Shown one piece after another: positions 1 to 64,000 of a stretch of DNA of 64,000 bases. The DNA comes from an uncultured Bacteroidales bacterium (GTDB lineage: Bacteria > Bacteroidota > Bacteroidia > Bacteroidales > FEN-979), in NCBI GenBank assembly GCA_963785325.1, contig CAWAVC010000046.1, positions 23,671-87,670 of the forward strand. Reading direction: 5' to 3'. Both the position numbers and the translations under genes were made by a program. The number at the start of each line of letters is the position of its first letter. Position 1 is the first letter of the stretch. The notes beneath the pieces are model-generated. The model searched no databases. It saw only the letters and a program-made list of their open reading frames with translations, and was not told the DNA's origin.

Positions 1-1308
1 GCTGGGATCCTGCCTTATTTAGGGATGACGACGGAAGTATGTATTTTTATTGGGGCAGCGGTAATGATCCAAAGTCTAATTATATCAAAGGAGTGGAGGT
101 GGATCCGCGTACTGGTTTTAAAAATAAAGGACCAGTCAGGGAATTGTTCTTTATTTACCCGGACGAACATGGATGGGAGCGTTTTGGAGAAAACAATTTA
201 GATACCCTCACCAGGCCTTACGTGGAGGGATCGTGGATGACAAAACACGATGGGAAATATTACCTGCAATATGCTGCCCCTGGAACCGAATGGAATATTT
301 ATGCCGACGGTGTATATGTTTCGGATCAGCCACTAGTGACCTTTCAAATATCAGCCTTATAATCCCTTTTCGTTCAAACCGGGAGGTTACATCAGAGGTG
401 CAGGACATGGCAGCACCATGCAAGATAATTATGGGAATTGGTGGCATGTAGCCACGATGCAAATATCTGTGAAGAATAAGTTTGAAAGAAGGATAGGACT
501 TTTTCCGGCCGGATTTGACAATGACGGTGAACTATACTGCAATACAGCATTCGGGGATTATCCTCAGCGTGTTGTTCCTGGCAAGGCGGATCATCTCAAG
601 GGAATATTTACGGGATGGATGCTACTATCATATAAAAAAGCGGCGATCGCTTCTTCTTCCGATAGTGATCACCCGGTGAACCTGGCCTTTGACGAAGATA
701 TAAAAACATACTGGGCTGCAAAAAGCGGAGATAAAGGAGAATTTCTGCAAGTAGACCTGGGTGGAATAAGAACAGTGCATGCTTTACAGGTTAACTTTGC
801 TGATCATCATGCAGATTTTTATGGCAAACAGCTGAATATTTATCAACAGTACCAGGTGATGGAATCAACAGATGGCATCACGTGGAGAATGATGATCGAT
901 AAGAGCCTTAATACAAATGACATTCCTGATGACTATACAGAATTACAACAACCTGTTAAAACCCGCTATCTGAAACTGGTGAATATAAATATGCCAGGTG
1001 GATATTTTGCCATTGGTGATTTTCGTGTTTTTGGATTGCAGGATGGCGCTAAACCTGAGATGGTAAAGAATCTTACCGCAATCCGGGCTTCCGACGAACG
1101 CAATATAACTCTAAGATGGAATGCCGTGAAGGAAGCATATGCATACAATATTTATTACGGCATTGAGCCTCAAAAACTGTATAACTGCATCATGGTGATT
1201 GACCAGAACCATTATAATTTCCACGGGTTGAACCGTGATGCAGACTATTATTTCTCAATTCAGGCTGTTGGGGAAACGGGCGTGTCTGTAATGAGCAGCG
1301 TGAGATAA
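1..1308 (+). pseudogene. GH43-family glycoside hydrolase with C-terminal F5/8 type C (discoidin/CBM32-like) and Fn3-like modules. The 5' end lies outside the window and the frame is broken near 336-340.
   Basis: ORFs 39..362 and 418..1308 are one gene. Frame 3 reads ...EGSWMTKHDGKYYLQYAAPGTEWNIYADGVYVSDQPLV and then stops at 360. Frame 1 is open from 340 and continues PFKYQPYNPFSFKPGGYIRGAGHGSTMQDNYGNWWHVATM. The later segment DEDIKTYWAAKSGDKGEFLQVDLGG looks like a discoidin domain. Confidence 0.75.
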
Positions 1309-1423
1309 AAAATTAATGCCAACCCGGGAAGATTTGAATTTCCTGTTTGCCAGATAATGATTTTATGATGACATTTGCACCGGTTTTAAACGGAATTCAT
1401 GACATCTAAAATCGCTTAAGGTC

Positions 1424-2707
1424 GTGAGAATAATTGCATTAATTATTGTTTTAGTTCTTGTAAGCTTTCTGACACTTGCTCAACAGTCAGACACATCGAA
1501 GAATGACTGGTTTACTATTCATGCTCAGACAACGATAATCAATCAGTTCAAGCCTGCTTTTTCTGCAAAGTACACAGGTGACAACAGTTTAACGACCCAG
1601 CAGGAAGATAAAACTTCCATCACTTCGACGCTCTTTCTTGGAGCACGACTGTGGAAAGGTGCCAGTGTTTTTCTTGATCCTGAACTTGGAGGCGGCTATG
1701 GACTTAGTCAAACAGTTGGAATTGCAGCAGCGCCCAATGGCGAAACTTACAGGATAGGTAACCCTGCACCACAAGTCTATATAGCCCGTTTATTTTACAG
1801 ACAAATTTTTGCTTTGGGCCCTGCAAGAAATTATCAGGAGAATGACTTTAATCACCTTGGTGAATATCTGCCCGACAGGTATCTTGCTTTGACAATTGGG
1901 AAAATAGGGATCACAGACTATTTTGATGACAACAAGTACAGCCATGATCCCCGTACACAATTTATGTGCTGGGCATTAATGGATAATGGTGCTTGGGATT
2001 ATCCGGCCAACACCCGTGGCTATTCACCAAGTATTGTCTTGGAATTTGTATCATCGCGGAATGAACTCAGATACGGATTTTCATTGGTACCTCTGGTTGC
2101 CAACGGGAGCTTTATGAATTGGCATATCCTCGAAGCAAATTCGCACTCACTTGAATATACATATCGGTACAAATTGAATAAACGGAATGGGGCCATACGT
2201 TTATCAGGATTTTTTACAACAACAAATATGGGTAATTACAGGGAAAGTCTGAACTTAGATCCGCAACACCCTGTTATCGAGAATACCAGGGAAAATGGTC
2301 ACACGAAATATGGTTTTGGAATTAATGCTGAACAGGAAATAAATGATTTTACAGGTTGTTTTTTAAGGGCAGGATGGAACGATGGAAACAATGAGACTTG
2401 GGCATTTACCGAGATCGACCGTACTATAAGTGCAGGAATCACGGTGACTGGAGAAAGATGGAGCCGTAAAAATGATAATATAGGATTAGCCTATGTTGTA
2501 TCAGGAATTTCAAAGTCTCACAGGGACTACTTACAAGCTGGAGGAGAAGGATTCTTACTTGGTGATGGATATCTTAATTATGGGTTTGAACATCTGACAG
2601 AACTTTATTATTCTGCTGAATTAGTTAGAAATCATATTTATTTGAGCTTAGCCTATCAGCTTTTAGTGAACCCAGGCTACAATATAGACAGACAAGGTTC
2701 CGGTTAA
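1424..2707 (+). CDS. Carbohydrate-selective porin, OprB-like outer-membrane beta-barrel
   Basis: 427-aa ORF with a GTG start and signal peptide MRIIALIIVLVLVSFLTLAQQ. The N-terminal TIHAQTTIINQFKPAFSAKYTGDNSL and the alternating aromatic/glycine beta-strand pattern recall the OprB family. It sits beside a GH43 gene. Confidence 0.6.
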   Translation: MRIIALIIVLVLVSFLTLAQQSDTSKNDWFTIHAQTTIINQFKPAFSAKYTGDNSLTTQQEDKTSITSTLFLGARLWKGASVFLDPELGGGYGLSQTVGIAAAPNGETYRIGNPAPQVYIARLFYRQIFALGPARNYQENDFNHLGEYLPDRYLALTIGKIGITDYFDDNKYSHDPRTQFMCWALMDNGAWDYPANTRGYSPSIVLEFVSSRNELRYGFSLVPLVANGSFMNWHILEANSHSLEYTYRYKLNKRNGAIRLSGFFTTTNMGNYRESLNLDPQHPVIENTRENGHTKYGFGINAEQEINDFTGCFLRAGWNDGNNETWAFTEIDRTISAGITVTGERWSRKNDNIGLAYVVSGISKSHRDYLQAGGEGFLLGDGYLNYGFEHLTELYYSAELVRNHIYLSLAYQLLVNPGYNIDRQGSG

Positions 2708-2799
2708 CATTTTTTCTGTGCGGCTACACGCCAGGATTTGATAAAATATTAGAAATTACTGCTGCATTAAATATGCGAATGATTCCTATTCTGATGCAA

Positions 2800-2807
2800 T
2801 AATTTTG
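2800..2807 (+). promoter_or_regulatory. Bacteroidota -7 promoter box (TAATTTTG) upstream of sufB
   Basis: Exact match to the TAnnTTTG consensus, 75 nt upstream of the sufB ATG. No clear -33 TTTG at the canonical spacing. Confidence 0.4.
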
Positions 2808-2882
2808 TACCTTTACATTTCAAAAACACTGTTTTTCCAGTTGATACGATTTGTGTTTAGACTTATTCTAATTTGATTTTCA

Positions 2883-9243: not shown

Positions 9244-9287
9244 AATAATGAAATAATGATTTGAGTTTCTAAAGAGAATCTAGATGT

Positions 9288-9295
9288 CAAAGATA
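9288..9295 (-). promoter_or_regulatory. -7 promoter box (TATCTTTG on the minus strand) for the 8389..9243 gene
   Basis: The reverse complement of caaagata is TATCTTTG, 44 nt upstream of the minus-strand ATG. Confidence 0.45.
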
Positions 9296-9335
9296 AATCA
9301 TTTGCTGCTTAATTTTAAGGAAGGGTTATTTTCGG

Positions 9336-9343: not shown

Positions 9344-9362
9344 CATCCTCATTAAAATCTCC

Positions 9363-16617: not shown

Positions 16618-16652
16618 CACCCAATCTTAGAACAGGCCAATAAATTCATTAA

Positions 16653-18460
16653 GTGCAGAATATTCAGAAATATCGCAATCATTGCCCATGTTGACCACGG
16701 TAAAACTACCTTAGTTGACCGGATACTCCATCAGGCAAAATTATTTCGTGACAATCAGGTCGTAGCTGATCTGGTGCTCGACTCTAACGATCTTGAACGC
16801 GAAAGAGGGATCACAATCCTTTCAAAGAATGTATCGGTCAGATATAAGGGAACAAAGATCAACATTATAGATACCCCAGGTCATTCTGATTTCGGCGGGG
16901 AAGTTGAACGAGTGCTCAACATGGCAGATGGTGTTTTGCTTGTGGTCGATGCCTTTGAAGGCCCGATGCCACAAACCCGTTTTGTACTTCAGAAAGCACT
17001 GGAACTCGGGAAGAAACCTATCGTTGTTATCAACAAAGTTGATAAACCCAATTGTGCGCCGGATGAAGTCAACGAAGCTGTTTTCGAATTGATGTTTAGT
17101 CTGGATGCCAATGAAGACCAACTTAACTTCCCGACTGTCTATGGTTCATCAAAACAAGGATGGATGTCTGCAGATTGGAGAAACCCTACAACCGATGTCA
17201 CATATCTTCTTGACACGATTATTAAATATATTTCTGCCCCGTCGCACGAGCCAGGCACACTTCAATTGCAGATAAGTTCACTGGATTATTCATCGTATAT
17301 AGGCCGGATAGCCGTTGGCCGTATAACACGAGGATCGATCTCCGCTGGAATGCACGTTTCGCTCGTAAAGAACGACGGGACTATTTTAAAATCAACGGTT
17401 AAAGAATTATACCTTTTTGAAGGGCTGGGCAAAGAAAAGGTGAAATTTGAAGTTGAGGCTGGTGAGATCTGTGCTGTTTTGGGCCCCGAGAATTTTGAGA
17501 TTGGGGATACCATCGCCGATGCTGAGAATCCTGAAGGAATGAAGCCGATTCTGTGTGGATGAACCGACCATGAGCATGCTTTTCACAATAAATAATTCCC
17601 CATTCGCAGGAAAAGAAGGAATATATGTTACCTCTCGTCACATCCGTGAACGGCTTTTTAAGGAGACTGAAAAGAATCTTGCACTTAAAGTGCATGAAAT
17701 GGATTCTCCTGACAAATTCCAGGTTTACGGAAGAGGGATCCTCCACTTGGCCATACTCGTGGAAACTATGCGCCGTGAAGGGTATGAGTTTCAACTTGGT
17801 CAGCCCAATGTGATTACAAAAGTGGTTGACGGAAAGATTCATGAGCCAGTGGAATTGTTGAGGGTAGCAGTCCCGGAATCTTTTTCGGGAAAGGTCATAG
17901 AGATTGTCAGTCGCCGTAGAGGGGACCTTATCCGCCTTGAAACAAAGCGTGACCGTACCATTCTGGAATTTGAAATCCCGGCAAGAGGACTGATCGGGTT
18001 ACGGAACCCGGTATTAACTGCAACGGAAGGAGAAGCAGTTATTGCGCACAGGTTTAAAAGTTATGAATCATGGAAAGGAGATATGGGCAGCCGGAACAGC
18101 GGTTCCCTGATTGCCGGAGAAACCGGTACAGCCATTACTTATTCAATCGATAAACTTCAGTCCCGTGGAAAGTTTTTCATTGAACCGGGTGAAAATATTT
18201 ATGCCGGGCAGGTCGTAGGTGAAAGTACCCGCAGTGATGATATAGTTATTAACCTTACAAAAACAAAAAAACTCAGCAATGTACGTGCATCCGGTTCGGA
18301 TGATAAAGCAGTGATCGTTCCTGCTGTAAAATTCTCACTGGAAGAGGCAATGGAATACATTCAGGATGATGAGTTTGTTGAGGTAACGCCAAAATCTATT
18401 CGATTGCGGAAGATCATCCTGGATGAGACAGAACGGAAAAGAAGTAAAAAAGCAATATGA
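16653..18460 (+). pseudogene. typA: Translational GTPase TypA/BipA, reading frame broken twice (about 16668-16670 and about 17550-17557)
   Basis: ORFs 16615..17562 and 17555..18460 together give about 600 aa of BipA, with G1 AHVDHGKTT, G3 DTPGHSDF and G4 NKVD. The junction reads ...MKPILCG* in frame 1 and VDEPTMSMLFTINNSPFAGKEG in frame 2. GTG 16653 in frame 0 gives MQNIQ-, and it joins NIAIIAHVDHGKTT if one A of the AAA at 16668-70 is removed. Confidence 0.85.
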
Positions 18461-18943: not shown

Positions 18944-20859
18944 ATGACTGTTAAGACTGGTGACCTTCTGACATTGATAAATGACCCTGCTGACCTCCGG
19001 AAGTTGAAAGTAGAGGATCTTCCAAAACTTTGTGCTGAGATTCGTCAATTCATCATTGATGTAATTTCAACCAATCCAGGACATCTGGGTGCAAGCCTGG
19101 GAACTGTCGAGTTGACCGTCGCGATTCATTATATCTTTAATACACCTTTCGATAAGATTATCTGGGATGTGGGTCACCAGGCTTATACCCATAAGATTAT
19201 TACTGACAGAAAAAATGTTTTTAATACAATCCGGATGTACAAGGGTATCAGCGGATTTCCAAAGATGTCAGAAAGCAAATATGATGCGTTTGGTACAGGA
19301 CATTCATCTACCTCGATCTCTGCTGCATTAGGTATGGGAGTCGCTGCCAATCTTAACAACGAAAGAGACCGGCACCATGTGGCCATCATTGGCGATGGCG
19401 CCATTTCGGGAGGGATGGCCATGGAAGCAATGAACAATGCCGGAGTTTCGAATGCCAACTTGCTGGTTATTCTTAATGATAATGGCATCGCAATCGACAA
19501 GAATGTCGGAGCGATCAAGGATTATCTTGCGGATATTGTGACCTCCGGAACATACAATAAAATCCGTGATAAGATATGGCTGATGCTGGGCGGTGGAACC
19601 CGTTACGGGAAAAATTCGAGAGCCATTGTCAAACAACTCGGAAATGCCTTAAAGTCGACTTTGCTGAACAGGAGTAATCTTTTTGAAGCCTTCAATTTCC
19701 GATATTTTGGACCTGTAGATGGTCACGATGTTATACGGCTTGTAAAATTGCTGGAGGATATAAAAAAAATCCATGGTCCCAAACTGCTCCATATTGTGAC
19801 TGTGAAAGGGAAAGGCTATATGCATGCCGAGAAAGAACAAACTATTTATCATGCTCCAGGAGTTTTTGATAAAAATACAGGAGAAATACGAGAAGATAAA
19901 TGCATGACCAAGCCCCAAAGTATCAGACAGTTTTTGGATGTACCATTGTTGAGTTGGCCGAGGCAAACCCAAAAATTGTAGGGATAACACCTGCCATGTC
20001 GACCGGTTGTTCACTCAATATCATGATGGCTAAGATGCCGGAAAGGACATTCGATGTAGGAATCGCCGAACAACATGCGATTACTTTCTCAGCCGGACTT
20101 GCAGCCTCCGGAATGATCCCTTTCTGCAATGTTTATTCGACTTTCCTTCAGCGTGCCTACGATCAGATCATTCATGATGTGGCGCTTCAGAAACTGAATG
20201 TTGTATTTTGCCTTGACCGTGCCGGACTAGTCGGTGAAGATGGTGCCACGCACCATGGATCCTTCGACCTTGCTTATCTGAATTCCATTCCGAATATGAC
20301 AGTTTCGGCTCCCATGAATGAGGAACAGCTCAGGAACCTTATGTATACGGCACAACTTGATGGCAAAGGCCCGTTTGCGATCCGTTATCCAAGAGGAAAA
20401 GGTGTCATGCCGAAATGGAAAACTCCTTTTATAGAATTACCGGTAGGAAAAGGAAGGATGACCCGCGATGGTTCGGATGCAGCCGTTATTACCATCGGCC
20501 ATATAGGCAATGATGCAGTGGGGGCCTGTAAAGAACTTGAACGTCAAGGATTTTCAGTTGCCCATTATGATATGATATTCCTGAAACCCATGGATATTGA
20601 TCTACTTCATGAGATTTTCCGGAAATTCAATAAAATTGTGACAGTCGAAGATGGAACCATAATTGGAGGACTTGGCTCTTCTGTCATTGATTTTATGTCG
20701 GAGAATAAATATACCGCCTGGATAAAAAAACTTGGTATTCCTGATCATTTTATTGAGCAGGGCACTATTGCAGAACTTCACCATGAGTGCGGCTATGATA
20801 AAGAAGGAATTATTGCAGCGTTGAAAGAAATGTTGGTTCCGGCTATTTCCCCGGGGTAA
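18944..20859 (+). pseudogene. dxs: 1-deoxy-D-xylulose-5-phosphate synthase, reading frame broken near 19895-19905
   Basis: ORF 18944..19981 (frame 2) holds the N-terminal TPP domain (GHQAYTHKIITDR, GDGAISGGMAMEAMNNAG). ORF 19900..20859 (frame 1) continues [29 protein letters not shown] and the C-terminal transketolase-like domains. The pattern implies one base missing relative to an intact gene. Confidence 0.88.
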
Positions 20860-20882: not shown

Positions 20883-21633
20883 TTACCTGTTGATTCTTTT
20901 CTTCACAGTTTCCCATGTTTCTGTGATAAGGAAACTTTCATCCATATTGCCCATCATGGTAAGGAGTTTCTTCATTGGAACTGAAAATGATAAGTATCTC
21001 TTTGGGAACACAAGGCCTTGCAGAACAGTCGAACATACCAAGAACGGCCCTTGGATTTTCTTTAGCATTTTCAAGCCACGACCGATAAACTATACTTCCG
21101 CATCCTGAACTGAATGGGGCAATAACACCATCTCCATCCACCTGATCGAAATTTGCCAGGGTAAACAGGCCTGAAAGAATATCCGGAGTCGCAAAAAAGA
21201 TAACACCTTCGGGTTCATCCGGTTCTTCGAGTTTATCCCATCTTTTAAAGATGATGTATTTTCCGCCGGTGGGTATGGCCTGCATCTTTTTCATGACCTC
21301 TCTGACCATTTCGGGAGTGCGAATATAGCGTTCACCCTCCATTTCACCGGGAATCCCGCAGGAAAGAAAATACTCGAAGTTTGGTCGCATTCCTTTGGCA
21401 TACCCGAGATATCGCTTCGATCCCATACAACGAAGGCTGGATTCATTGTAAGCAAGCGATTCACCTTTTCGCACCTTTGCCAATTCACGGATGATGCAGC
21501 TCCAGTCCTTGTTTGGCTTGGCGATAACAACTGTTCCGGGATCAGAAGAGTAAAAATAGACAAAAGGAAATTCGGCCTTGCCAAAGTACTTTTCCCACTT
21601 TTCCAGGAATTCGTTTTTTATTTTACTGTCCAT
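20883..21633 (-). pseudogene. DUF169-family protein, reading frame broken near 20991-21003
   Basis: ORF 20938..21633 ends ...CSARPCVPKEILIIFSS. The overlapping ORF 20883..21074 in another frame reads PKRYLSFSVPMKKLLTMMGNMDESFLITETWETVKK, which looks like the natural C-terminus. Confidence 0.6.
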
Positions 21634-24098: not shown

Positions 24099-24122
24099 AG
24101 AATGAAGAATGAAAAATGAAGT
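24081..24122. repeat. Near-perfect heptamer tandem repeat: (ATGAAGA)x4, ATGAAAA, ATGAAGT
   Basis: Read directly. The array contains the permease stop codon (24096-98) and ends 6 nt before the ATG at 24129. Confidence 0.9.
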
Positions 24123-24128
24123 ATTACT

Positions 24129-24911
24129 ATGTCAGGAATTGAAATTGTTGTCCTGATTGGGGCGAGAATTTTTATCGGATTTATCAATACGCTCTCAGGA
24201 GGAGGATTCTGTTATCACTCTTTCCCTATTAATCCTTTTGGGATTACCTGCAAATATTGCCAATGGAACTAACCGTATCAGCATCTTTTTTCAGACTTTT
24301 TCATCGGTAGGCAGGTTTACACGTCAAAAGATGTTTACTTCGGTAAAGCCAGTCTGGCTGGGCATCCCGGCTACTGTTGGAGCAATTCTTGGAGCTTATC
24401 TGGCCATCGATGTTAATGTTAAAGTCATTGAAATTGCAATGTGCATTGCAATGGTTTTGATGGTTTTCTTCCTTTTTATAAACCGGATAAATGGCTCAAA
24501 GAAAATTCACAATTACTGAAATATCCGGTCACATGGTGGCAACTGGTCATCTTTTTTGTTGTTGGATTTTATGGCGGATTTATCCAGGTAGGGGTAGGCT
24601 ACTTTTTATTGATGTCGCTTGTTCTTGGAGTGGGGTATGATCTGGTTAAAGCCAACGCTATTAAAAACCTAATCGTATTCTTTTATGCAATTTTTGCCCT
24701 TCTTGTATTTATTATCAACGGACAGGTAAATTATCTTTATGGACTGATCCTATCTATAGGAAGTGTAATTGGTGCTTTGATTGCGTCATACCTGGCCTTG
24801 AGAAAAGGAGCCGGGTTCATCCGTGCAGTGATAATTCTTTCGGTTATCCTGACCATTCTGCAAATAACCGGTCTTGTTAACTTTACAGAGTTTTTTAAGA
24901 AAATAATGTAA
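24129..24911 (+). pseudogene. TauE/SafE-family (sulfite exporter-like) membrane protein, frame changes 0 to 1 to 0
   Basis: ATG 24129 gives MSGIEIVVLIGARIFIGFINTLSGGG (frame 0). Frame 1 (ORF 24157..24519) carries SVITLSLLILLGLPANIANGTNRI. Frame 0 resumes (ORF 24441..24911) with PDKWLKENSQLL...FYGGFIQVGVGYFLL. The breaks are near 24205-24212 and near 24465-24480 (a T5 run). Confidence 0.75.
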
Positions 24912-24923
24912 TATCAGAATGAT

Positions 24924-25990
24924 ATGAAAAGTCTTAATAAGTTTATTTTAAGAGGCTGTTTTTTATTCTCCATCTTCGGTACTCTTATACTATGGAATGG
25001 CGCCTGTCTTTTTTCTCAGAACCTTTCCAGCATCCCTGCCTCAACGGCAGGCGGGCAGCATGCTGCATCCGGCCTCCGGAAATGGGTTCTTGTAATTCAT
25101 GGTGGCGCAGGTGGAACCGCAGGACAGAAAATATCTGAAGAAGTGCAGCAACAATATATTTTAGAGATGACTGAGGTTTTAAAAGCAGGTGCAGCTGTTC
25201 TTTCTGCTGGAGGCTCCAGTCTGGATGCTGTGGAAACCAGTATCCGGATGATGGAAGACTCTCCTTTGTTCAATGCAGGAAAAGGATCAGTGTTCACTGA
25301 AGAAGGAAAAAACGAAATGGATGCTGCGATTATGGATGGTCAGACTTTAAAAGCCGGTGCAGTAGCAGGAGTAACCACCATTAAAAACCCAATATCCGCG
25401 GCCAGGGCCGTGATGGAAAAGTCTAAACATGTGATGTTGATCGACGGGGGAGCTGAGAAATTTGCAAAAGACCAGGGCCTGGAGATCGTCCCGACTTCTT
25501 ATTTCTTTACTAAAAAGCGCTGGGATGAATTTCAGAAGATTCATAAACAGGAAATGAATCATAAACCAGATTCTGTGAAAAGTCATGGAACTGTTGGTGC
25601 GGTGGCACTGGACACTCACGGGAACCTCGCAGCCGGAACTTCAACAGGAGGAATGACCAATAAAAGAGAGGGAGGGTGGGGGATTCCCCTGTCATAGGTG
25701 CCGGAACCTATGCAAACAATAGTACCTGCGCAGTTTCCTGTACAGGCCATGGAGAATATTTTATCCGTAATGTTGTTGCTTATGATGTCTCCGCCCGTAT
25801 GGAATACAAAGGACAAAGCTTACTAGAAGCAGCAAGTGATGTTATCAATGTCAAACTGAAATCCCAGGGAGCAGAAGGCGGCCTGATAGCTGTCGACAGG
25901 AATGGAAATGTTGCCATGCCCTTCAATACTGCCATGATGTTCAGGGGCAGTATCAGTAATGATAGTAAAATACAGGTGGAAACCTATTGA
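24924..25990 (+). pseudogene. Isoaspartyl peptidase / L-asparaginase (Ntn-hydrolase, asparaginase-2 family), frame broken near 25665-25683
   Basis: ORF 24924..25697 contains the autoprocessing context HGTVGAVALD. It ends GGMTNKREGGWGIPLS*, while ORF 25676..25990 continues GDSPVIGAGTYANN. The break lies in the G-rich tract gagggagggtggggg. Confidence 0.8.
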
Positions 25991-35473: not shown

Positions 35474-38400
35474 TTAACGTAATAATAAAATTCTTTTTAC
35501 AAGGGTATAAGTCGGAGTCTGTATTTTCATCAGATAGATGCCATTACTTAGGTTTCCTGCCGTCATTTCAATCAGATGCTTTCCAGCAGTTTGTTTTTCA
35601 TTATCCAGAGTGACTCTGAGTTCTTTTCCAAATTCATCGAAAAGTGAGATTTTGACTGCGCCTTTTTCTTTTATTTCGTAAGAGATGGAAATGGTTTCCA
35701 TGAATGGATTTGGATAAACACTCACCATTCTGTCCATACTAAACTGGTGGATTCCATTCGTCGGGAAATAGATACCGTTGGAAGGTAATGACGGGCAACT
35801 GCTTATCGTGTCACTTACGATCACATAGTAGAGTCCTGATGCTGTTGGGGTAAAAACCTGATCTGTTGCATCAGGAATCATCGCATCATTCAGATACCAT
35901 TGATTGCCAGCGGAAGAACTGGAAATCAGCAATCCGTTGTTATAGATTATGGTTGGCGTAAGGGGAAGCGGACGTACAGTAAGCGTCATTTCTCCTGAAG
36001 TCAACGATGAGGAACCGTCAAAAACGGTAACTGTATAGGAGATATCAGAGAGTGGTGTTGAAATTGGTGTTTTACTCGTTGGATCATCGAGGTAAGTTTC
36101 AGGATTCCATTGATAAGTATAATTTCCCGAACCTCCAGCAGGAATTGCTATTAATTGTGAAGAGCTACCCAAGCAGATATTTGCCGGAAATCCATTGGCA
36201 GCCAGGTTTAGGAGACCACCAATGCAAAAGATATCGGCCGCCCATCCCGCTAAATTCACACTAACGTCGGATTTGAATTGGAAAGTCAGGGGTCCCGTAG
36301 TGCTGATAAAAGGTCCAGGAATAGTTGATCCGCAAAACGTTCCAAACAATGGATAAGTGATGTCAGGACCGTTGAAAACCTTTAGCCAGTCATAATCGCA
36401 GTTCGCTTCTTCCTCGACATTGAATGCATTGAAAATAACCTTGATCATTGCGCCTGTGTCTCCGGGCAAGAAGGTATAAGTATAATTTTCATTATCGCTG
36501 TAATTCGAGTCTGGACCACCTGAATCATAAAAGTTACCGGCGCAGGTCATAGTTGTACCATTTTTCATGTCATACTGGGGTAACTTCCCAATTATCAGGC
36601 CGATTGTATCCTGCCATGCGTATTGATTTAATGCACCTCCCGTCATCCTGAAATTGAGATTCACCTCCGTTCCTATTGGTGTGATCCCGTTTGTTGTGAT
36701 CGCGAAATTTAACAAATCAGAGCTGCCTGAACCAAGATTTCCTAAATAACAACTAGTATTCGAAGTCAGTATATAAGGCGCATATGAAGAGGGAATGGAT
36801 AGGAGTGCAATGGTATTGGAAGAAGAGGCGTGTCCTGAATTTATCGTGGAGATCCTTAACGTTGCTGATTCGCCGGGATCAAGAATCCCATTGTTATTAC
36901 CTCCGGGTAAGGGATCAAATACTGTGACGGTTCCAATGTTCAGGACCGGGGCATTCAAAATCAGGATTAATGTAGAATTCCATGAAATAGTATCGTTAGT
37001 CAAAATGAGATTGCAAAAAACCCTGTATTGATCCTGCACATACTGATGGATATTCAGGGCAAAAGCATTCTGCCCGGTTATCATTTCTCCTGCTGCTACC
37101 GGACCGAAATTAAAGGATCCGGATGTAATTGTAACATTTGTGTCGCTGGTAGATAAAGTTCCCGAAATAACTGAAGCGTTTTTCAAACCAATGTTATTTA
37201 CAGTAACATTCAACAGGATTGATTCCCCGTAATCAGCGAGGTGATTGTTATTTCCGCCCAATGAATCATTCACGGTATAGGTTGAGAGTATAACGTAAGG
37301 CCCTGTTGCAGGTATAACCTGGATAAAACCTATAAATGGTTTCCGGTTTTGTTTTGTGATAACAACCGAAAGAGAATCGGGAGAAGTCAACGGACTGAAT
37401 GTCAGGTTAACAATACCAGATGCGTCTGCACATTTTGCTGCAAGAAGTGTTGTATCATGTACTGCCAGGGCGACATAGGCATAAGGTTCCGTTGTAATAG
37501 TTAGGGTGGACATTCCGACTATCATGGTTGCAGGATAAGAAGCCGCAACCGGTCCCGGTACAGAATAATAAATGCTGAGTGATGGATCTCCCATTAGGTT
37601 ATAGGTCTCCCAATAATATTGCTTTATTCCTGAAGACGATTCCTCAACTGCAAGGTCACCGCCAAAGACCATCTGATCCATGGTTACAAACCATTGTGAA
37701 GCGTTTTCACCACGATCATGAAAAGTTACATCAAAAGCTCCCAGGTGCAGTGAATCATAGACAGGGTTCGTCGTAACAGTTTTGTACCCGCAAGCCCACC
37801 AGAAATCTTCATCCCAATATGAATAATCAGAGCATCCGATATAACCCAAAGCCCCTTTTTGTGCAGTCCTGGTCACCTCCTTGGCAAAGCAATCAGTGCT
37901 GAAATTAGCTGTTTTGCAACAATTCCCGATCATCAGGCAAAACTTGTGATTATTCTGCAGCAGATCAATATCGGAAATGAGAAATTCGGGATCAGCCCAA
38001 CCGTCTTCACTGCCGTGAGCCGTATAATTGGCAAATGCAACTCCATCTGAAACATTCTGATGGATATCCTGTGCATAATTTCCTCCCGATGGCTCGGGTT
38101 GAAGATAAGTATTTGAAAAGATTGAATGAGTAGAATTGAAATAATAGGTAGTACCATAATTGATCTGTCCGTTCCCATAAAGTGGCCCGTTGGTCTCGTC
38201 GGCACCAGCCACCATAGTCACATCGCCAAGAAATGAATCCGAGGGCATCGAATATTGTTCATATTCGAGGGTTTTATCAATGTACGTTTGTAACTGGGTC
38301 ACGTTTTGAGCTGCGAACCTGCCGTAAAATACATCAGGAATATTGTCGCCGGTGTAATCGCAATAATATAAATCAGAAGGATGGCTGTTTGTCATCCATG

Positions 38401-39389
38401 TGGGTATCTGTCCGATATCGCCCGCAAATAATACAAAACTTGGTTTCTGGTAACCTGTAGGTGGATTGTCGTAGAGTCCCTGAAGGTAGTTTTTAATGGA
38501 GGTCGTAGTCGTTCCAACAGCCGGGTTGTTGGTATAACCTGCAATTACATTAAATCCTTTTTTCTTCTTCCAGGCTATGAATGACTGGAGCGCATCATGA
38601 AAGGTAGAATCAGCAATAATGACATAGGTCACAGGAGCAGTGGTGATAAGGCTGTCAGGTATTTGCATGTAATTTCCAATCCCTGATGAATACAGATTTT
38701 GAAAATAAGGAGACCAGGTCTGTTTTTTAAGCCGGATTGTTGACGGAATATCCGAATTTGTGAAAGTGATCTTAATATCAAGTCGTTCATAAACCCGGAG
38801 TTTACCAGTTACAGGATTATACCAAACTGGTGAAATATCCAGGCGGGCGAGGTTTAATGACCTCATAATTCCAACGTGTGTTATTTTAACTACCGGCCCC
38901 CCCAGCCATTGATTCATCTGATAAGTAATGGTATTCAGGACAAACGGAATCTGTTTCGGATCAGTAATGTTTTTGGATACAGGCGCCTGTAAAGGGATAA
39001 TACGATTATTGATCCCAAAGGCAGAAAGATCATATTCTTTGTACTTCTGTTGAATTATCTCTATAGAAAGGCCAGCATTCAAAGGTATTTCAATAATTTT
39101 ATGAAAAACAGGAAGTTTTGGATCGCCAACCTTATTGCTGTATCCATATCCCCTGACAAAGATTTCATCAAACAAGCCGGAATTAGGTTTGCACATTCCT
39201 GTATTGGATGGAAGATAATGACGTGGAAAAAGATAATGACTGGTAAGATTTTGCTGTAATCCTGAATTCTGTATTACCATTGTTAACAAGAATTTCACCT
39301 GCATAAATAGTCCCGGTTAATATTGCAAAACCCAGGAAAAAAAACAGGAAAAATTTGACTGGCTGAAAAGAGTTAGACATTATTCCCAT
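35474..39389 (-). pseudogene. T9SS-secreted C25-family (gingipain-like) cysteine peptidase, about 1300 aa, frame broken near 39186-39194 close to the N-terminus
   Basis: ORF 39183..39389 encodes the signal peptide plus ...SSIQYRNVQT*. The main ORF continues in another frame with KPNSGLFDEIFVRGYGYSNKVGDPKLPVF. His context YTAHGSEDGW, Cys context LMIGNCCKTANF. A CUB-like module (GNFYDSGGPDSNYSDNENYTYTF...DWLKVFNG) and the C-terminal VYPNPFMETISISYE...GIYLMKIQT T9SS sorting domain are present. Confidence 0.85.
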
Positions 39390-43595: not shown

Positions 43596-43996
43596 ATGCC
43601 AACATTATTCTCCAATTACAAACTTAAAAACCATATCATAAAAGACCGAATCGTTTTTCCTCCGGTGGTTTGTTTCCATTATTCCGGAAGTGACGGTATT
43701 GTGAATGACAGGAATGTTGCACAGTACACTGCCCGGGCAGAAGGAGGGCCAGGGATCATCATCAACGAAGCAACGGCAGTGAGGAAAGAAGGCCGCCTTG
43801 CCCCTTTTCAGTTAGGTATCTGGTCAGATGCTCATCTTCCCGGTCTATCGAAGATCGCCGAGACTGTTAAAAGAATAATGTTCTTTCATTGATCCAGATC
43901 AATTATGCCGGACTTACCTCTCCTGAATCGGTGACAAAGTCTCCCGGAGGCCTTTCCCCGGATGAGAAAAGAGCAGGATCAAAGGGTTCTATTTAG
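43596..43996 (+). pseudogene. Remnant of an Old Yellow Enzyme-family NADH:flavin oxidoreductase (N-terminal roughly 130 aa only, with a frame break near 43866-43872)
   Basis: KLKNHIIKDRIVFPPVV...ARAEGGPGIIINEATAV...FQLGIWSD is the OYE N-terminus. After an A4 run the frame shifts to NNVLSLIQINYAGL (the Q-x-x-H/YAG segment) and stops at 43996. The rest of the TIM barrel is absent. A TATCTTTG box lies at 43564-43571. Confidence 0.7.
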
Positions 43997-50248: not shown

Positions 50249-52021
50249 TCAGAAAAGAGAAGATGTTTTTTTCAGGATCCTTCGGTAAAATGAAAGAACA
50301 TTTGACCGCGAAACAAATCCGATATATTTTCCATTCCGTGTAACAGGAATATTCCATAGGTTTGAACTCTCCAGTTTTGTCATGACTGCTTCCATATTTT
50401 CAGCCGCATCGATCGAAAGGACATCCCTTGCAACGATATCCCCGATAGTCAGATCCTTATGAAGTTCCGGCTGGAATAATAGTTCCTTCACATTATCGAG
50501 CTGAATGATGCCAGATAAAATTATTGTCGGAATCCACAACAGGAAAAATATTTCGGTTACTATTTGTAAATGCTTCGATCAGTTTTCCGAATTTATCGGT
50601 AATCAGTAAGGGAATGAATTCTGTTTCTATAAGATCGTCAAGAAGGATCTGGCGGAGGACATTAGTGTCTTTATCACCGGTGAACACATGGCCTTTCTGA
50701 GCAAGTTTTTTCGTATAGATAGAATATGGTTCAAAATATCTGCTGATGAAATAAGAAAGTGCTGAAACTATCATAAGCGGAACAAACAGGACATATCCGC
50801 CTGTTATCTCTGCAATCAGAAAGATGGCAGTGAGCGGTGCATGAATTACACCGGCCATGATACCGGCCATTCCTACTGCCACAAAATTGTTGATATGAAG
50901 GTCACTGATACCTAAAGTATTTACCAGGAAGGCGAGTCCAAAACCAGCCATAGCACCTGTGAAGAGAGAAGGAGCGAAGATACCTCCATTACCCCCGGAA
51001 CCAAGGGTCAGGGCAGTAGCGATGGGCTTTACCAGGACAATTGCAAATGCAATAATGAGCAATTCCCATGGATTATCACGGAACCCGCTGAAAATACTGT
51101 TGTTCATTATATCCTGGAATGATCCTTTCAGGAGGGCTGTCACCGTGATATATCCTTCCCCAAACAGGGGAGGGAATAGAAAGATCAGACCGCATAACAG
51201 CAATCCTCCTAACAGTGCCTTGATATAGTTTTCCTTTGTCGTCTCCATTTTTTCCTCGATGAAAAGAGAAACCCTTGTCATATAAACTGAAAGAAGTCCG
51301 CAAATAACACCGAGAAGGATATAAAAGGGGATGGCATGGTAGTACCAGTCGTTGGTGATCAGGTAAAATAATTGTCCCCGGTATAAAAGCTTTGAAACAA
51401 TGATCGATGTAGCGGTGGATATCAGTAGGGGAATGAAAAGAGGGATGGTTATATCGGTGAGTAATACTTCGATAGCAAATATGACGCCGGCGATTGGACA
51501 GTTGCAAAACTGCTGCTATTCCTGAGGCAGCCCCACAAGCAAGAAGCAGCACCCTTTCCTTGTCGCCGAAACCAAGCTGCGTAGCGATGTTTGACCCGAT
51601 GGCTGAGCCTGTGATGACTATAGGAGCTTCCAAACCGGCGCTACCGCCAAAACCCACTGTTATTCCACTGGTAATAATGTGTGAGTACATCTTGTTTCTT
51701 TCCACCCGGCCCGACTTACGAACGATAGAAAAGAGGATGCTCCCCAGCCCTTTTTCCATTTTCCCTTTAAAAAAAATTTCTAACCACCATTACAGTCAGC
51801 AGAATACCTATGACCGGCAACAGAAAGTACCAGATACGATGTACTGAAACCTGGAAAAAATATTCAGAGATCTGTTGCATAAGGTGGACAAAAGTCTTCA
51901 GAACGATAGCGGATAATGCAGAAATAATCCCCACCAGTATGCTTGCCATTACAAGCATCGTGCGGCTCCCTAAATGGGACTTCTGCCAGACTGTTATAGG
52001 CCGGAGGAGTTTGTTAAACAC
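50249..52021 (-). pseudogene. ClC-family voltage-gated chloride channel / Cl-:H+ antiporter with a C-terminal CBS domain, broken by three frame changes
   Basis: Four ORF pieces (51767..52021, 51076..51759, 50493..51281, 50249..50539) tile one ClC: GFGGSAGLEAPIV (GxEGP-type), GSGGNGGIFAPSLF (GxFxP), and a CBS tail. The breaks are near 51766-51780 (A8/T8 run), 51500-51512 (GIAAV then NCPIAGVIFAIEVLL in another frame) and 50508-50520. Confidence 0.85.
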
Positions 52022-54467: not shown

Positions 54468-54476
54468 TCTTTCTTT

Positions 54477-56361: not shown

Positions 56362-57128
56362 ATGATACAACCGAAAAAGCATCTGGGTCAGCATTTCCTA
56401 CATGATGAAAACATTGCCCGCAAGATTGTCGGTTACCTTTCCAAAGATATTATCAATGTTGTCGAAGTAGGTCCGGGTTTAGGGGTTCTGTCAAAATATC
56501 TTCTTGAAAATCCAGGATTGAATCCATATTTTTTTGAGATTGATAGTGAAGCAGTTTTGCATCTTCAAAAAGAGTATCCAGCCATTTCCGGAAGGTTGAT
56601 AGAGAAAGATTTCCTGCAGGTAGATCTTTCGATAATTCCTGTTCCATTTGCAGTTATCGGTAATTTTCCTTACAATATTTCCACTCAGATCCTATTCCGC
56701 GTGCTTGAGTATAGAAATTCGATTACAGAGGTGATTGGCATGTTCCAGAAAGAGGTTGCCGATAGAATTGCTTCGCCTCCGGGTTCGAAAAAGTATGGTA
56801 TCCTGAGTGTACTGCTGAAAGCGTGGTTCCATATAGAATATATGTTTACTGTAAATGAATCAGTGTTTTATCCTCCTCCCAAAATCAAATCAGCTGTTAT
56901 ACGTTTACAGAGAAACGAGGTTAAAAAACTGAATTGTGATGAGAAACTTTTTTTCGCACAGTAAAAACCGCTTTTAACCAACGCAGAAAGACATTAAGGA
57001 ATGCCTTGAAAGAGATGATTACAGTTGGAAAATTACCTTTAGACGAAATTCAATCATTGCTGGATAAACGTGCGGAACAATTAAGCGTGTCTGATTTTAT
57101 AGAGCTGACACGATACCTTGAAGGATAA
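56362..57128 (+). pseudogene. rsmA: 16S rRNA (adenine1518/1519-N6)-dimethyltransferase RsmA/KsgA, frame broken in a T7 run at 56948-56954
   Basis: KKHLGQHFLHD, VVEVGPGLGVLS and GNFPYNISTQILF motifs. ORF 56362..56964 ends EKLFFAQ*, while the next frame continues RTVKTAFNQRRKTLRNALKE...LSVSDFIELTRYLEG* with the stop at 57126-28. Confidence 0.88.
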
Positions 57129-57180: not shown

Positions 57181-59303
57181 ATGGGTAAGAATTCATATAA
57201 TAAAAAAAGCAAGTCGTTTAAAAATTCGAAAACACGATCTTCTTCAAGTAACAAATCAAAAAATGTAGTGCGACCTTCGCTTGATAAAACCAGGATCCCC
57301 TCCTGACAAAGGGATTATAAAAGCAGATAATTCAAAAAAAGCAAACCGTTATTTTGTTCTCTTCTTTTTTGTATTTAGCGCTATTCTTTACGGGAATACG
57401 GTTCTTAATAAATGGGCGATAGATGATAATTTCGTTACCGGCCCACAGAATGAACTTGTGAAAAAAGGATTTGCAGCGATTCCCAAAATATTTTCCACTT
57501 TCTATGTGGATCTAAAAGGCAATGTGGGAAATCAGGAAACCGATTATCGTCCTATTGTCAAAATGACCTTTGCCTATTGAATACGGACTGTGGGGAGGAC
57601 AAAAAGCCGGTAGAAGCCACATTAACATCAATGTACTTCTCTATTTCTGCATTTTGTTTTGCTGTTTTTCATACTCAGGCGATTACTGAAGAAATCATAA
57701 CATCCTATTTCCTTTCCTGATCACACTGCTATTTATGGCACACCCAGTTCATACGGAAGTAGTTGCCAGTCTCTAAGAACCGGGACGAAATGTTGTCATT
57801 TCTTTGCGGACTCGGGGGACTGCATTTTATACTCCGGTATGCTGAAAGAAAAAAATCATTTATGTTTTTGCGACTCTGATCGTATTCTTCTTAGGTTACC
57901 TGTGCAAATCGTCCATATTGTCTTTTGTTGTAATATATCCCTTGGTGCTGTATTTCTTTACCGACATCAAACCAAAAAATTTCATCTGGATATTCGCAGC
58001 CGTACTATTTGTTGGATTAGTGGCCCAATTCCTACCACGGGTTTTTCTTCCGAAGGCAATCCATGTGAATTCCTTTAACGAGAACCCGTTATTCATGGAG
58101 AAGATCTTTTGGATACGTACAGGTACAGGGCTGATTACATTATTATTTTATTTAAGAATACTCATCTTTCCGCATCCTTTGCTTTATTATTATGGTTACA
58201 ATATGATTCCCATTACTGGTTGGGGGAATATCTGGGTGATACTCTCTTTTATTATATACCTCGGTATATTTATTTATGCCATTTTGAAATTTCGGGAAAA
58301 ACATATTCTTTCATTTGCCATTTTATATTATTTCATTGCCATTGCCATCTATACAAATGTGATAATACCGGTTCCGGGTATTGTTGCCGAACGGTTTGTG
58401 TTTAGTGCATCATTGGGGTTTATCATTGCACTGGTTTATTTTATTTTCCTGGCTTTCCATACAGAACCCAGGAGTCTCACCATTGAATTCAGTGAACGGG
58501 CAAAAATTATTGTGATTATTGCCTTACTTCTGATTCCCTGTACAGCCATGACCATTAGGAGGAACCGTGATTGGCGGAATTTGCGTGATCTTTATACTAC
58601 GGATATAAAGTATCTGGTTAAATCATTTAAAGCCAATACTGAATATGCAGAATTCCTGTCAGGGATGGTCTATAAGGATCCTAATTATCAGCAAAATGGA
58701 ACAGTCAATGAAAGATTGCAGAAAATGATTATTACACATTTCCGCAGGGCATTGAAGATATATCCTAATGATTATGTCACTCTGAACGATCTTGCAACAG
58801 TTTACATTAATTTTTCACACAAACCTGATTCAGCACTCGTTTTTCTGAAGAACGCAATTAATTTACAGCCTGAACTTCAACCTGCCTGGGTAAACATGGC
58901 CATGGCATACCAAAAGAAAAACAAGATCGACAGCGCCATCATTTGTTACCAGAAGGTTCTACAAATCAATCCGAAAGCATTGACTGCTTATTTTAAGATG
59001 GCAAATTTTTACTTTGAAAAGGGTGAAGTTGGAAGGGCTATGAATATGAATGAGGCTCTCATGAGAAAGTATCCCGACCTGGATGTTCCATATTTTAACA
59101 TTGGATATTATTTTATTATGCAGGGAGATACCACAAATGCTATAAAGTACTGGGAACAAGCTGCTCAACGAAAAGCCACTTATGAAGTTTGTACAGACCT
59201 GAGTATAATGTACAAAGCAAAAGGAGATATGGAAAGAGCAAGATACTATTATGGACTTGCAGAAGATGCCCAACAAAGGCGGAATGCAGAAAGAAATCCT
59301 TGA
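57181..59303 (+). pseudogene. TMTC/DUF1736-like polytopic membrane protein with C-terminal TPR repeats (putative glycosyltransferase). The N-terminal third is broken by at least 5 frame changes.
   Basis: Fragments in three frames can be chained: ...ANRYFVLFFFVFSAILYGNTVLNKWAIDDNFV...VKMTFA / IEYGLWGGQKAGRSHINNVLLY / LLFFILRRLLKKS / NILFPFLITLLFMAHPVHTEVVASL / NRDEMLSFLCGLGGLHFILRYAERKKSFMF / ATLIVFFLGYLCKSSILSFVVIYPLV. These run into the intact ORF 57918..59303, which holds TM segments and then TPRs. HPVHTE is the DUF1736 hallmark. Confidence 0.7.
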
Positions 59304-62452: not shown

Positions 62453-62469
62453 CCTTAAACAAAAATAGT

Positions 62470-62706
62470 ATGACGATAAATGATTTTATTAAAAATATTG
62501 AAGGTGAATTTGATGATCTGAAACCGGGAATCCTTAAACCTGATAGCAACTTCAGGAATGTCTTCGAATGGAACTCGATCAATGCTCTTATCCTGATTGC
62601 GATGGTGAAGACTGAATATGATGTAACCCTTACAGCAGAAGATTTGATAAAATCAAAAACAGTAGACGATATTTACAAACTTATTGAAACACGTACCACG
62701 ACTTAA
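62470..62706 (+). CDS. Acyl carrier protein (stand-alone)
   Basis: 78 aa. FEWNSINALILIAMV places a Ser at the start of helix II, where the phosphopantetheine Ser sits. ATG 62470 is preferred over the track start at 62320. Confidence 0.7.
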   Translation: MTINDFIKNIEGEFDDLKPGILKPDSNFRNVFEWNSINALILIAMVKTEYDVTLTAEDLIKSKTVDDIYKLIETRTTT

Positions 62707-62707
62707 A

Positions 62708-63763
62708 ATGGCTCTTTTTTCTTTTTCAGGCATCCGGTTTGCTGGCATCGCAGCTACTGTTCCCCTAAAAAAGGAATACAATTCAGAATACAACTGGATC
62801 ACAAAGAAAGAACGGGAGTCTATTATAAAAAATATTGGTGTCGAATCCCGGCATGTGGCTGAAAAAGGCGTCACTACTTCTGATCTTTGTGTTGTTGCGG
62901 CCGAAAAACTCATTGCGAATTTAGCCTGGGATAAAAAAGAGATCGAATTACTGGTTTTTGTTTCACAATCGCGTGATTATCTCGTTCCCACTACAGCATG
63001 CATCGTCCAGGACCGTCTGGGGTTACCTCATTCCTGCATTGCATTTGATGTTGGCATGGGATGCTCAGGTTACATTTACGGGCTTTCTATCGTTGCCGGA
63101 ATGATGCAGGAGGGAATGATCAGAAAAGCTCTTTTGATGGTCGGTGATATTTCCACTATCACCGCGGCCTATCGTGATAAAAGTACTTATCCTTTGTTCG
63201 GAGATGCAGGTACGGTTACGGCGCTTGAATATGCCCCCCCGGCTCCTGCAATGATCTTTAATCTTCAGACAGATGGTTCACGGTATAAGGCCCTAATCAT
63301 TCAGGACGGGGGCGCCCGAAATAAAATGTCTCGAAAATCGTTCGAGTTCAAATCTTACGGAAAAGGGATCCACCGTAACCGACTAAATCTTGAACTGGAT
63401 GGTATTGAGGTCTTTAATTTCAGCCTCAGGGAAGTCGTTCCGAACATAAAATCCCTTTTGCGTTTTTCGGAAAGAACACTGACAGATATTGATTTTCTGA
63501 TATTCCATCAGGCCAACCGGCTGATAAATGAAACCTTGCGAAAAATGCTGAAACTTGATCCCGAAAAAGTACCTTATTCGATAAAGGAATACGGAAATAC
63601 AAGTGGTGCATCGGTACCTTTGACCATGGTTTCTCAATTGAAGGAAAATCTTTCGCAAACCCGGGTCAGATTGTTGCTTTCCGCTTTTGGCGTAGGATTA
63701 TCATGGGGATCCGTGATTCTGGAAACAGAGAATATCTGCTGCCCGGAGGTAATCGAAGTATAA
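62708..63763 (+). CDS. 3-oxoacyl-ACP synthase III (FabH-like KAS III)
   Basis: Cys in DVGMGCSGYIYGL, His in IFHQANRLI, Asn in YGNTSGASVP. The ATG follows 1 nt after the ACP stop. Confidence 0.85.
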   Translation: MALFSFSGIRFAGIAATVPLKKEYNSEYNWITKKERESIIKNIGVESRHVAEKGVTTSDLCVVAAEKLIANLAWDKKEIELLVFVSQSRDYLVPTTACIVQDRLGLPHSCIAFDVGMGCSGYIYGLSIVAGMMQEGMIRKALLMVGDISTITAAYRDKSTYPLFGDAGTVTALEYAPPAPAMIFNLQTDGSRYKALIIQDGGARNKMSRKSFEFKSYGKGIHRNRLNLELDGIEVFNFSLREVVPNIKSLLRFSERTLTDIDFLIFHQANRLINETLRKMLKLDPEKVPYSIKEYGNTSGASVPLTMVSQLKENLSQTRVRLLLSAFGVGLSWGSVILETENICCPEVIEV

Positions 63764-63782
63764 ACCTGTTAATCTTTTTAAT

Positions 63783-64000
63783 ATGAATGAGTTTCTGTTG
63801 ACAGACAAAACTATTCTGATTACAGGAGCCTCCTCGGGAATTGGAAAGGAAACAGCCTTGCTCGTGAGTCAATACGATGGATCAGTTTATATCACCGGTC
63901 GCAATGAGACCAGACTAAATGAGACTTTTCAAAAACTCTCTTCTTCACGTCATACGTCACATGTCACACATCATAAGAAGTTTATAGCCGATCTCACTGT
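63783..64000 (+). CDS. SDR-family oxidoreductase (FabG-like ketoreductase), 3' end outside the window
   Basis: MNEFLLTDKTILITGASSGIGKETAL... runs open to the window edge. Confidence 0.7.
   Translation, partial: MNEFLLTDKTILITGASSGIGKETALLVSQYDGSVYITGRNETRLNETFQKLSSSRHTSHVTHHKKFIADLT

What the first reader, a model, noticed from the sequence alone, without database searches (positions are those of the whole stretch)
1..64000. About 11 conserved genes carry roughly 20 single-base frame changes across the window
These genes can each be rebuilt as one normal-length protein only by switching reading frame once or more: GH43, typA (x2), dxs, DUF169, tauE (x2), asparaginase, C25 peptidase, OYE remnant, ClC (x3), rsmA, and the TMTC-like gene (at least 5). 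Three of them (dxs, typA, rsmA) are core housekeeping genes. Several breaks sit in homopolymers: A8/T8 at 51769-76, T7 at 56948-54, T5 at about 24472, A4 at about 43867, and G-runs at about 25670. That pattern points to homopolymer miscalls in the assembly. Other breaks do not sit in homopolymers (for example an extra G at about 51505 and the tgtg tract at 17552-57). The long TonB receptor and the suf genes are clean. Either the assembly is error-prone, so every annotation from it under-calls genes, or this lineage is undergoing real gene decay.
Basis: partly seen in the sequence, partly recalled or inferred. Interest (0 to 1): 0.6.

Follow-up and report, generated by a model that had tools for sequence, protein, structure and literature searches.

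The report
Frameshifts from assembly consensus errors
About 20 single-base insertions or deletions split 11 otherwise normal genes in this Bacteroidales contig; almost all look like consensus errors of the assembly, not real gene decay, so this is an ordinary data-quality problem.

Summary
Twenty single-base frame changes break 11 genes: GH43, typA x2, dxs, DUF169, tauE x2, asparaginase, C25 peptidase, an OYE relic, ClC x3, rsmA, and a TMTC-like gene x6. I placed 18 of them to the base against relatives or same-strain contigs. The GH43 site is inferred from the sequence and the OYE site is approximate. Nineteen one-base edits restore full-length ORFs in the ten non-relic genes.

The cause is almost certainly assembly consensus error.
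- Independent Logan contigs of the same strain (0 SNPs over 11 kb) lack the extra base at all three conserved-gene sites they cover (typA start, C25 N-terminus, ClC N-terminus).
- There are no nonsense codons or deletions in these genes.
- The densest stretch (6 indels in 550 nt) is more conserved than the rest of its gene.
- SNPs between strains are 14 synonymous to 1 nonsynonymous.
- The sites are strongly clustered.
- Among eight related MAGs, only a Nanopore-only MAG shows the same pattern (22 private 1-nt indels in 5.3 kb).

The homopolymer link is weak: 6/20 sites lie near runs of 4 or more. The OYE relic is the one real pseudogene: it is truncated, and its frame state is reproduced in another run. 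Known artefact, low interest.

The parts
3..1305 (+). GH43 glycoside hydrolase with F5/8-C and fn3 domains (5' end cut by the window). One extra T at ~337 (CTAG[T]GACC).
   Evidence: After removing the T, the GH43 profile match runs unbroken across positions 123-286 of 288 and the sequence reads the LGPF motif. No relatives were available, so the exact base is inferred.
16651..18460 (+). typA/bipA. Extra C at 16665 (codon 5) and extra T at 17549 (relatives GATC, window GATTC).
   Evidence: L102, which has 0 SNPs against the window over 7.5 kb, lacks the C at 16665. The corrected ORF is 601 aa, as in relatives.
18944..20859 (+). dxs. One base missing at 19902 (relatives TGCCAT or TGTCAT, window TGCAT).
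   Evidence: All 80 related loci match across the break site; most match residues 1-630 or more in one segment. The corrected ORF is 639 aa.
20886..21633 (-). DUF169 gene. Extra T at 20995.
   Evidence: The corrected ORF is 252 aa, against 250-252 aa in L002 and L009.
24120..24911 (+). tauE/safE permease. Extra T at 24207 (GGATC to GGATTC) and a T lost at 24473 (T6 to T5).
   Evidence: The corrected ORF is 263 aa and matches the TauE profile at positions 2-236 of 237.
24924..25990 (+). Isoaspartyl peptidase / L-asparaginase (Asparaginase_2). A T is lost at 25665, after A4.
   Evidence: The corrected protein matches profile positions 1-306 of 309.
35474..39380 (-). C25 (gingipain-like) peptidase with a T9SS tail. 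Extra C at 39186 separates the signal peptide and propeptide start from the main ORF.
   Evidence: Logan contig L105 lacks the C, and its gene call starts at the signal peptide.
43605..43993 (+). Old Yellow Enzyme relic. Only about 130 N-terminal residues remain, with a frame change at ~43867. This is a genuine pseudogene remnant.
   Evidence: (profile positions 2-90 of 342 only). L104, from run ERR11596056, has no gap against the window across this region.
50252..51960 (-). ClC chloride channel with CBS domain. Extra bases at 50513, 51505 and 51777.
   Evidence: The best 46 homologues listed (84-94% identity) are unbroken, at 542-590 aa. L103, with 0 SNPs against the window over 3.5 kb, lacks the base at 51777.
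56362..57128 (+). rsmA/ksgA. One base missing at ~56954-56957 (T8 to T7 or the adjacent base).
   Evidence: The corrected protein matches the RrnaAD profile at positions 4-261 of 263.
57181..59303 (+). TMTC-like / TPR O-mannosyltransferase-like membrane protein. Six single-base indels between 57297 and 57845.
   Evidence: The corrected ORF is 707 aa, against 705 aa in orthologues. The indel-dense segment is 81-86% identical to orthologues, against 75-79% for the rest of the gene.

Best explanation
Apart from the OYE relic, the frame changes are consensus errors of the assembly that produced this contig, not mutations in the organism. The contig is most likely a long-read assembly, probably Nanopore-only, from a metagenome. 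In some stretches the consensus was poorly supported, for example through low coverage, mixed strains or difficult sequence. There the polished consensus gained or lost single bases. Each such error splits a normal gene into two or more ORFs. The organism itself carries intact typA, dxs, rsmA, ClC and the other genes.

Shown: the indels exist. Each is one base. Removing them restores normal genes. Three of three testable ones are absent from independent assemblies of the same strain.

Inferred: the remaining 16 have the same cause, and the platform is Nanopore.
For: 1. Independent contigs of the same strain.
- L102 has 0 mismatches against the window over 7,518 nt and lacks the extra C at 16665, giving VQNIRNIAIIAHVDHG as in relatives.
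- L103 has 0 mismatches over 3,469 nt and lacks the extra base at 51777.
- L105 lacks the extra C at 39186, and its C25 gene starts at the signal peptide.
- Across L102 and L103 together there are 0 SNPs and 3 one-base indels in 11 kb. That is the reverse of what real divergence looks like.

2. All 20 disruptions are single-base indels. There are no nonsense codons, no larger deletions and no IS elements in the 10 conserved genes.

3. There is no relaxed constraint.
- The TMTC-like segment with 6 indels in 550 nt is 81-86% identical to orthologues, against 75-79% for the rest of the gene.
- typA is 92-97% identical to relatives on both sides of its break.
- SNPs against near-identical strains are 14 synonymous to 1 nonsynonymous, including SNPs in dxs and typA (two codon frames corrected by hand).

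4. dxs, which I take from general knowledge to be essential in bacteria that rely on the MEP pathway, is hit.

5. The sites are strongly clustered: 7 lie within 1 kb, which 0 of 20,000 random placements reach.

6. Technology association.
- Among eight relatives over the same region, L002, L004, L005 and L007 have no private non-3n indels.
- L006 has one 1-nt indel. L003 and L008 have only longer ones.
- L009 has 22 private 1-nt indels, all within 5.3 kb.
- L009 comes from the Microflora Danica long-read catalogue, which is Nanopore-only (Flye plus one round of Medaka). Its authors report Nanopore-associated errors in lower-coverage MAGs (PMC12313526).
- Frameshifted gene calls from Nanopore consensus indels are a documented problem (PMC9262707).

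7. Logan contig ends fall within 60 nt of an indel site in 3 of 10 cases, against a 3.4% background (P=0.004). This suggests the reads are ambiguous at these positions.
Against: - Only 4 of the 20 sites are covered by independent contigs. The other 16 are judged by analogy.
- I could not establish the sequencing platform of the window or of the Logan runs. The source record is masked from look-ups.
- L105 carries its own frameshift, at about window 36808, where the window is intact. The comparison contigs are therefore not error-free. If they derive from the same noisy reads, they are not fully independent.
- The homopolymer bias usually cited for Nanopore errors is weak here.
- The frame change in the OYE relic is reproduced in another run, so not every indel is an artefact.
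Confidence: 0.9

Rival explanations
1. Real gene decay. The lineage is accumulating inactivating frameshifts, for example through relaxed selection in a small or host-restricted population, or through a mismatch-repair-deficient mutator.
For: About 20% of the genes in the window are broken. One true relic, the OYE fragment, exists and is reproduced in an independent run. A few sites lie in short runs such as T6->T5.
Against: - Three of three testable sites are absent in same-strain contigs.
- There are no nonsense mutations, deletions or IS elements in the conserved genes.
- dxs is hit.
- Six indels in 550 nt sit in a segment with higher-than-average conservation.
- Strain SNPs are 14 synonymous to 1 nonsynonymous.
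- Most sites are not in homopolymers, unlike mutator spectra.
Confidence: 0.04
2. Mixed-strain consensus. Real frameshift alleles exist as minor variants in the population, and the assembler stitched them into one chimeric contig.
For: L105 and L001 show that closely related haplotypes co-occur (7 and 8 SNPs). Logan contigs break near indel sites. L105 has a different frameshift in C25.
Against: This would need about 19 independent loss-of-function alleles, including one in dxs, at appreciable frequency. L102 and L103 have no SNPs against the window, so the same haplotype differs from it only by indels.
Confidence: 0.05
3. Programmed recoding. Ribosomal frameshifting or transcriptional slippage restores the proteins, so the breaks are functional features.
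For: One site adjoins an A8/T8 run (51769-76).
Against: None of the breaks is conserved. All relatives encode these genes in one frame. There is no shared slippery motif. The base next to the A8 run is absent in the same-strain contig L103.
Confidence: 0.01

Closest known systems
Indel consensus errors in Nanopore-only (meta)genome assemblies that fragment gene calls (PMC9262707; Microflora Danica long-read MAGs, PMC12313526)
   Same: Single-base indels split otherwise conserved genes. They are worse in some stretches than in others. They are absent from independent data for the same strain. A Nanopore-only MAG of a related species (L009) shows the same signature.
   Different: The classic description stresses homopolymers. 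Here most errors are insertions in non-repetitive context and occur in tight clusters. The platform of this contig could not be confirmed.
Pseudogene-rich genomes of recently host-restricted bacteria (for example Mycobacterium leprae or Sodalis; from my own knowledge)
   Same: A high fraction of genes is interrupted by frameshifts.
   Different: Those genomes, from my own knowledge, also carry nonsense mutations, deletions and IS elements, show relaxed constraint, and spare essential genes. None of this is seen here, apart from the single OYE relic.

Membership tests
Assembly/sequencing consensus indel artefact | The indel is not reproduced in an independent assembly or read set of the same strain | tested here: met
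   Sites 16665, 39186 and 51777 are absent from L102, L105 and L103. Only 4 of the 20 sites could be tested, and the OYE relic site is reproduced.
Assembly/sequencing consensus indel artefact | One-base corrections restore full-length proteins colinear with orthologues, with no other lesion | tested here: met
   Ten genes are restored by 19 edits, and no in-frame stops remain.
Assembly/sequencing consensus indel artefact | The pattern is associated with an error-prone platform or low coverage | tested here: inconclusive
   Among eight relatives, only the Nanopore-only MAG L009 shows the same pattern (PMC12313526). The window's own platform and coverage are unknown, because the source is masked.
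Assembly/sequencing consensus indel artefact | Raw reads contradict the consensus at the indel sites | not testable with these tools
   No read data are accessible.
True pseudogenes / genome decay | Lesions are reproducible across independent data | tested here: not met
   Zero of three in conserved genes. Met only for the OYE relic.
True pseudogenes / genome decay | A mixed lesion spectrum (nonsense, deletions, IS elements) and relaxed constraint | tested here: not met
   Only 1-nt indels are present. Conservation is equal or higher in the indel-dense segment. SNPs are 14 synonymous to 1 nonsynonymous.
Programmed frameshift / slippage sites | The frame change and a slippery motif are conserved in orthologues | tested here: not met
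   All relatives are in a single frame at every site.

The most novel reading that the evidence does not exclude
A subset of the untested sites, above all the six-indel cluster at the 5' end of the TMTC-like gene (57297-57845) or the T insertions inside GATC motifs, could reflect something real. One possibility is a locally hypermutable or phase-variable gene. Another is a reproducible motif-linked (methylation-dependent) miscall that marks an active GATC methylation system in this lineage.
Probability: 0.05. Interest if true: 0.35.

Novelty: not a real feature. Interest (0 to 1): 0.08.

Why it matters
The value is practical. Any annotation of this contig under-calls or truncates about a fifth of its genes. 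It would wrongly suggest loss of dxs, typA, rsmA, a chloride channel and other genes, so metabolic reconstructions or pseudogene counts made from it would be wrong. The same defect appears in L009, a related MAG that serves as a species representative in GTDB. It therefore affects reference databases too. Frameshift-aware annotation, or polishing with accurate reads, is needed before drawing biological conclusions.

Tried and rejected
- A concatenated query of four rebuilt proteins for the search for homologous proteins returned only unrelated long multidomain proteins and wasted one search.
- Exact-protein look-ups for the 204-aa NAD-binding protein, the 169-aa protein, SufC and the rsmA N-fragment found nothing.
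- The source contig (111,149 bp, in NCBI and ENA) is recognisable through P0164 but is masked from look-ups and carries no accession. The platform could therefore not be read off.
- The run and analysis accessions ERR11748453, ERR11594402 and ERZ25039479 were not found in the paper library or in the held supplements.
- No near-identical full-length ClC or TMTC-like protein exists in the protein collection. The best are 94% and 79% identical, so those sites could not be checked against the same strain.
- A strong homopolymer explanation was rejected on the counts.
- A GATC-methylation explanation was considered. Three T insertions fall in GATC, but this is too few to establish anything, and the three verified errors are not at GATC.
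- Other adjacent ORF pairs (47.0-48.2k, 62.3-63.8k, 30.5-32.1k) were checked for additional splits and are separate genes.
Full report
**What the window is.** It is a 64-kb Bacteroidales-type contig with 41% GC and no tRNA genes. It carries T9SS-tailed proteins, a TonB-dependent (SusC-like) receptor, a suf operon, typA, dxs and rsmA. The closest genomes are uncultured Bacteroidales/Prolixibacteraceae MAGs from fen, peat, permafrost, lake and Danish soil metagenomes. They are up to 93% identical in Dxs.

**Checking the observation.** I translated stop-to-stop segments and scanned them with Pfam.
- Adjacent segments in different frames match consecutive parts of one profile for typA, dxs, tauE, asparaginase, ClC and rsmA. 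GH43 stops at profile position 218 of 288. The OYE hit covers only positions 2-90 of 342.
- The C25 ORF looked whole. However, its signal peptide and first propeptide residues lie in another frame upstream.
- I fetched relatives around dxs from GTDB genomes (L002-L081), around the 54.5-56.4k TPR gene from JGI metagenomes (L082-L099), and around ClC through two homologues (L100 and L101).
- MAFFT alignments with these relatives place 15 of the breaks as one-base gaps private to the window. Three more (16665, 39186, 51777) are fixed to the base by same-strain Logan contigs. The GH43 site is inferred from the sequence, and the OYE site is approximate.
- The tally is 20 sites in 11 genes: 13 insertions, 6 deletions and one undetermined (the OYE relic).
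- Applying 19 one-base edits restores every non-relic gene to a single ORF of orthologue length. The six corrected proteins I re-scanned each give one continuous match; five cover nearly the whole Pfam profile, and GH43, cut by the window edge, covers profile positions 123-286 of 288.
Three of its local descriptions need small corrections (17549, 25665, 51777).
- Other adjacent ORF pairs that I checked are separate genes.

**Is it more than background?** I applied the same private-indel count to eight relatives over the homologous ~10-17 kb.
- L002, L004, L005 and L007 have no private non-3n indels. L006 has a single 1-nt deletion. L003 and L008 have only longer indels (2, 74 and 22 nt).
- The window has seven 1-nt indels.
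- L009 has 22, all inside its first 5.3 kb (18 insertions, 4 deletions).

**Error or decay: the direct test.** Exact-protein look-ups found five short contigs from Logan assemblies of public runs.
- L102 (ERR11748453) has no mismatches against window 9185-16704 over 7,518 nt. It lacks the extra C at 16665, which restores the typA start as in all relatives. It also has a one-base gap inside its terminal k-mer, which I regard as a contig-tip error.
- L103 (same run) matches 51727-55196 with no mismatches. It lacks the extra base at 51777, which restores the ClC N-terminus.
- L105 (same run) covers 36343-42282 with 7 SNPs, six of them synonymous. It lacks the extra C at 39186, and its C25 gene is called from the signal peptide. 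It also carries its own extra T at about window 36808, which truncates C25 where the window is intact.
- L104 (ERR11596056) covers 43039-46312 with one SNP and no gap, so it has the same frame state as the window in the OYE relic.
- L001 (ERR11594402) covers 17557-19806 at 99.6% identity with 8 SNPs, all synonymous. It spans none of the sites but begins 8 nt after the one at 17549.
- In sum, three of three testable frameshifts in conserved genes are not reproduced. The one in the truncated relic is.
- Across L102 and L103 the window differs by 0 substitutions and 3 one-base indels in 11 kb. That ratio is typical of consensus error, not of divergence.

**Indirect tests.**
- All lesions in the 10 conserved genes are one-base indels. 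There are no nonsense codons or larger deletions.
- The 550-nt stretch of the TMTC-like gene with six indels is 81-86% identical to orthologues once corrected, against 75-79% for the rest of the gene. Neutral decay long enough to collect six indels would, by my expectation from general knowledge of mutation spectra, have brought many substitutions and stop codons.
- typA is 92-97% identical to relatives on both sides of its break.
- dxs, which I take from general knowledge to be essential in bacteria that rely on the MEP pathway, is among the broken genes.
- The sites are clustered: bins of 4 kb hold 1, 0, 0, 0, 3, 1, 3, 0, 0, 1, 1, 0, 3, 0, 7, 0 sites. Seven sites lie within 1 kb, which 0 of 20,000 random placements reach.
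- Three of ten Logan contig ends lie within 60 nt of a site (P=0.004). This suggests the underlying reads are ambiguous at these places.

**Mechanism.**
- L009 belongs to the Microflora Danica long-read catalogue. That catalogue was assembled from Nanopore reads only, with Flye and one round of Medaka. Its authors note Nanopore-associated errors in lower-coverage MAGs (PMC12313526).
- Fragmented gene calls from consensus indels are the documented weakness of Nanopore-only assemblies below about 40-fold coverage (PMC9262707).
- The window shows the same signature as L009: clusters of private one-base indels, mostly insertions. I therefore infer the same cause, a locally poorly supported long-read consensus.
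- I could not verify the platform. The source contig (111,149 bp, in NCBI and ENA) is visible only through the 452-aa C-terminal TMTC fragment P0164 and is masked from look-ups.
- The homopolymer component is minor: 6 of 20 sites lie within 1 nt of a run of 4 or more, against 2.6 expected (P=0.04), and 2 of 20 near runs of 5 or more.
- Three T insertions fall inside what is GATC in relatives (17549, 20995, 24207). This hints at a motif effect but does not establish one.

**What is real.** The OYE fragment at about 43.6-43.99k keeps only about 130 N-terminal residues between rbfA and an SDR gene. Its state is reproduced in another run, so it is an ordinary pseudogene relic.

**Verdict.** The cause is a known assembly artefact, with confidence about 0.9. 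Real decay, chimeric strain consensus and recoding are unlikely. The finding has practical value as a quality warning but little biological interest.

Noticed in passing
L009:600-5300 (CAWDBP010000007.1, MFD01689.bin.1.120): This GTDB species-representative MAG has 22 private single-base indels (18 insertions, 4 deletions) in 5.3 kb. They shred its sigma factor / FecR / SusC-like receptor genes. There are none in the following ~10 kb.
   Followed up: partly
window 17549, 20995, 24207: Three T insertions fall inside a site that is GATC in the relatives (GATC to GATTC, or G-T-ATC). GATC is frequent here (6 per kb), so this is only a weak hint of a motif-linked, perhaps methylation-linked, miscall.
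   Followed up: partly
window 16704, 17557, 51727 (ends of L102, L001, L103): Three of ten ends of independent Logan contigs lie within 60 nt of a window indel site (P about 0.004), as if the reads were ambiguous at these positions.
   Followed up: partly
L105:5474 (window ~36808): The Logan contig carries its own extra T (T3 against T2), which truncates the C25 peptidase at 875 aa where the window is intact. The comparison contigs are therefore not error-free, or a variant strain exists.
   Followed up: no
window 52100-54500, compared with L100:3845-9901 and L101: Relatives carry an acetyl-CoA carboxylase cluster (carboxyl transferase, BCCP, biotin carboxylase; about 3.7 kb) between the M20 peptidase and the S13 peptidase next to ClC. 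The window and the same-strain contig L103 lack it, and the S13 peptidase is 283 aa against 314 aa.
   Followed up: no
window 43605-43993: A truncated Old Yellow Enzyme relic (about 130 N-terminal residues) lies between rbfA and an SDR gene. L104, from another run, has no gap against the window there.
   Followed up: partly
window 40818-41377 (- strand): A PemK-type toxin gene and a small upstream partner gene sit between the FtsX/MacB permease and a zinc-ribbon protein.
   Followed up: no
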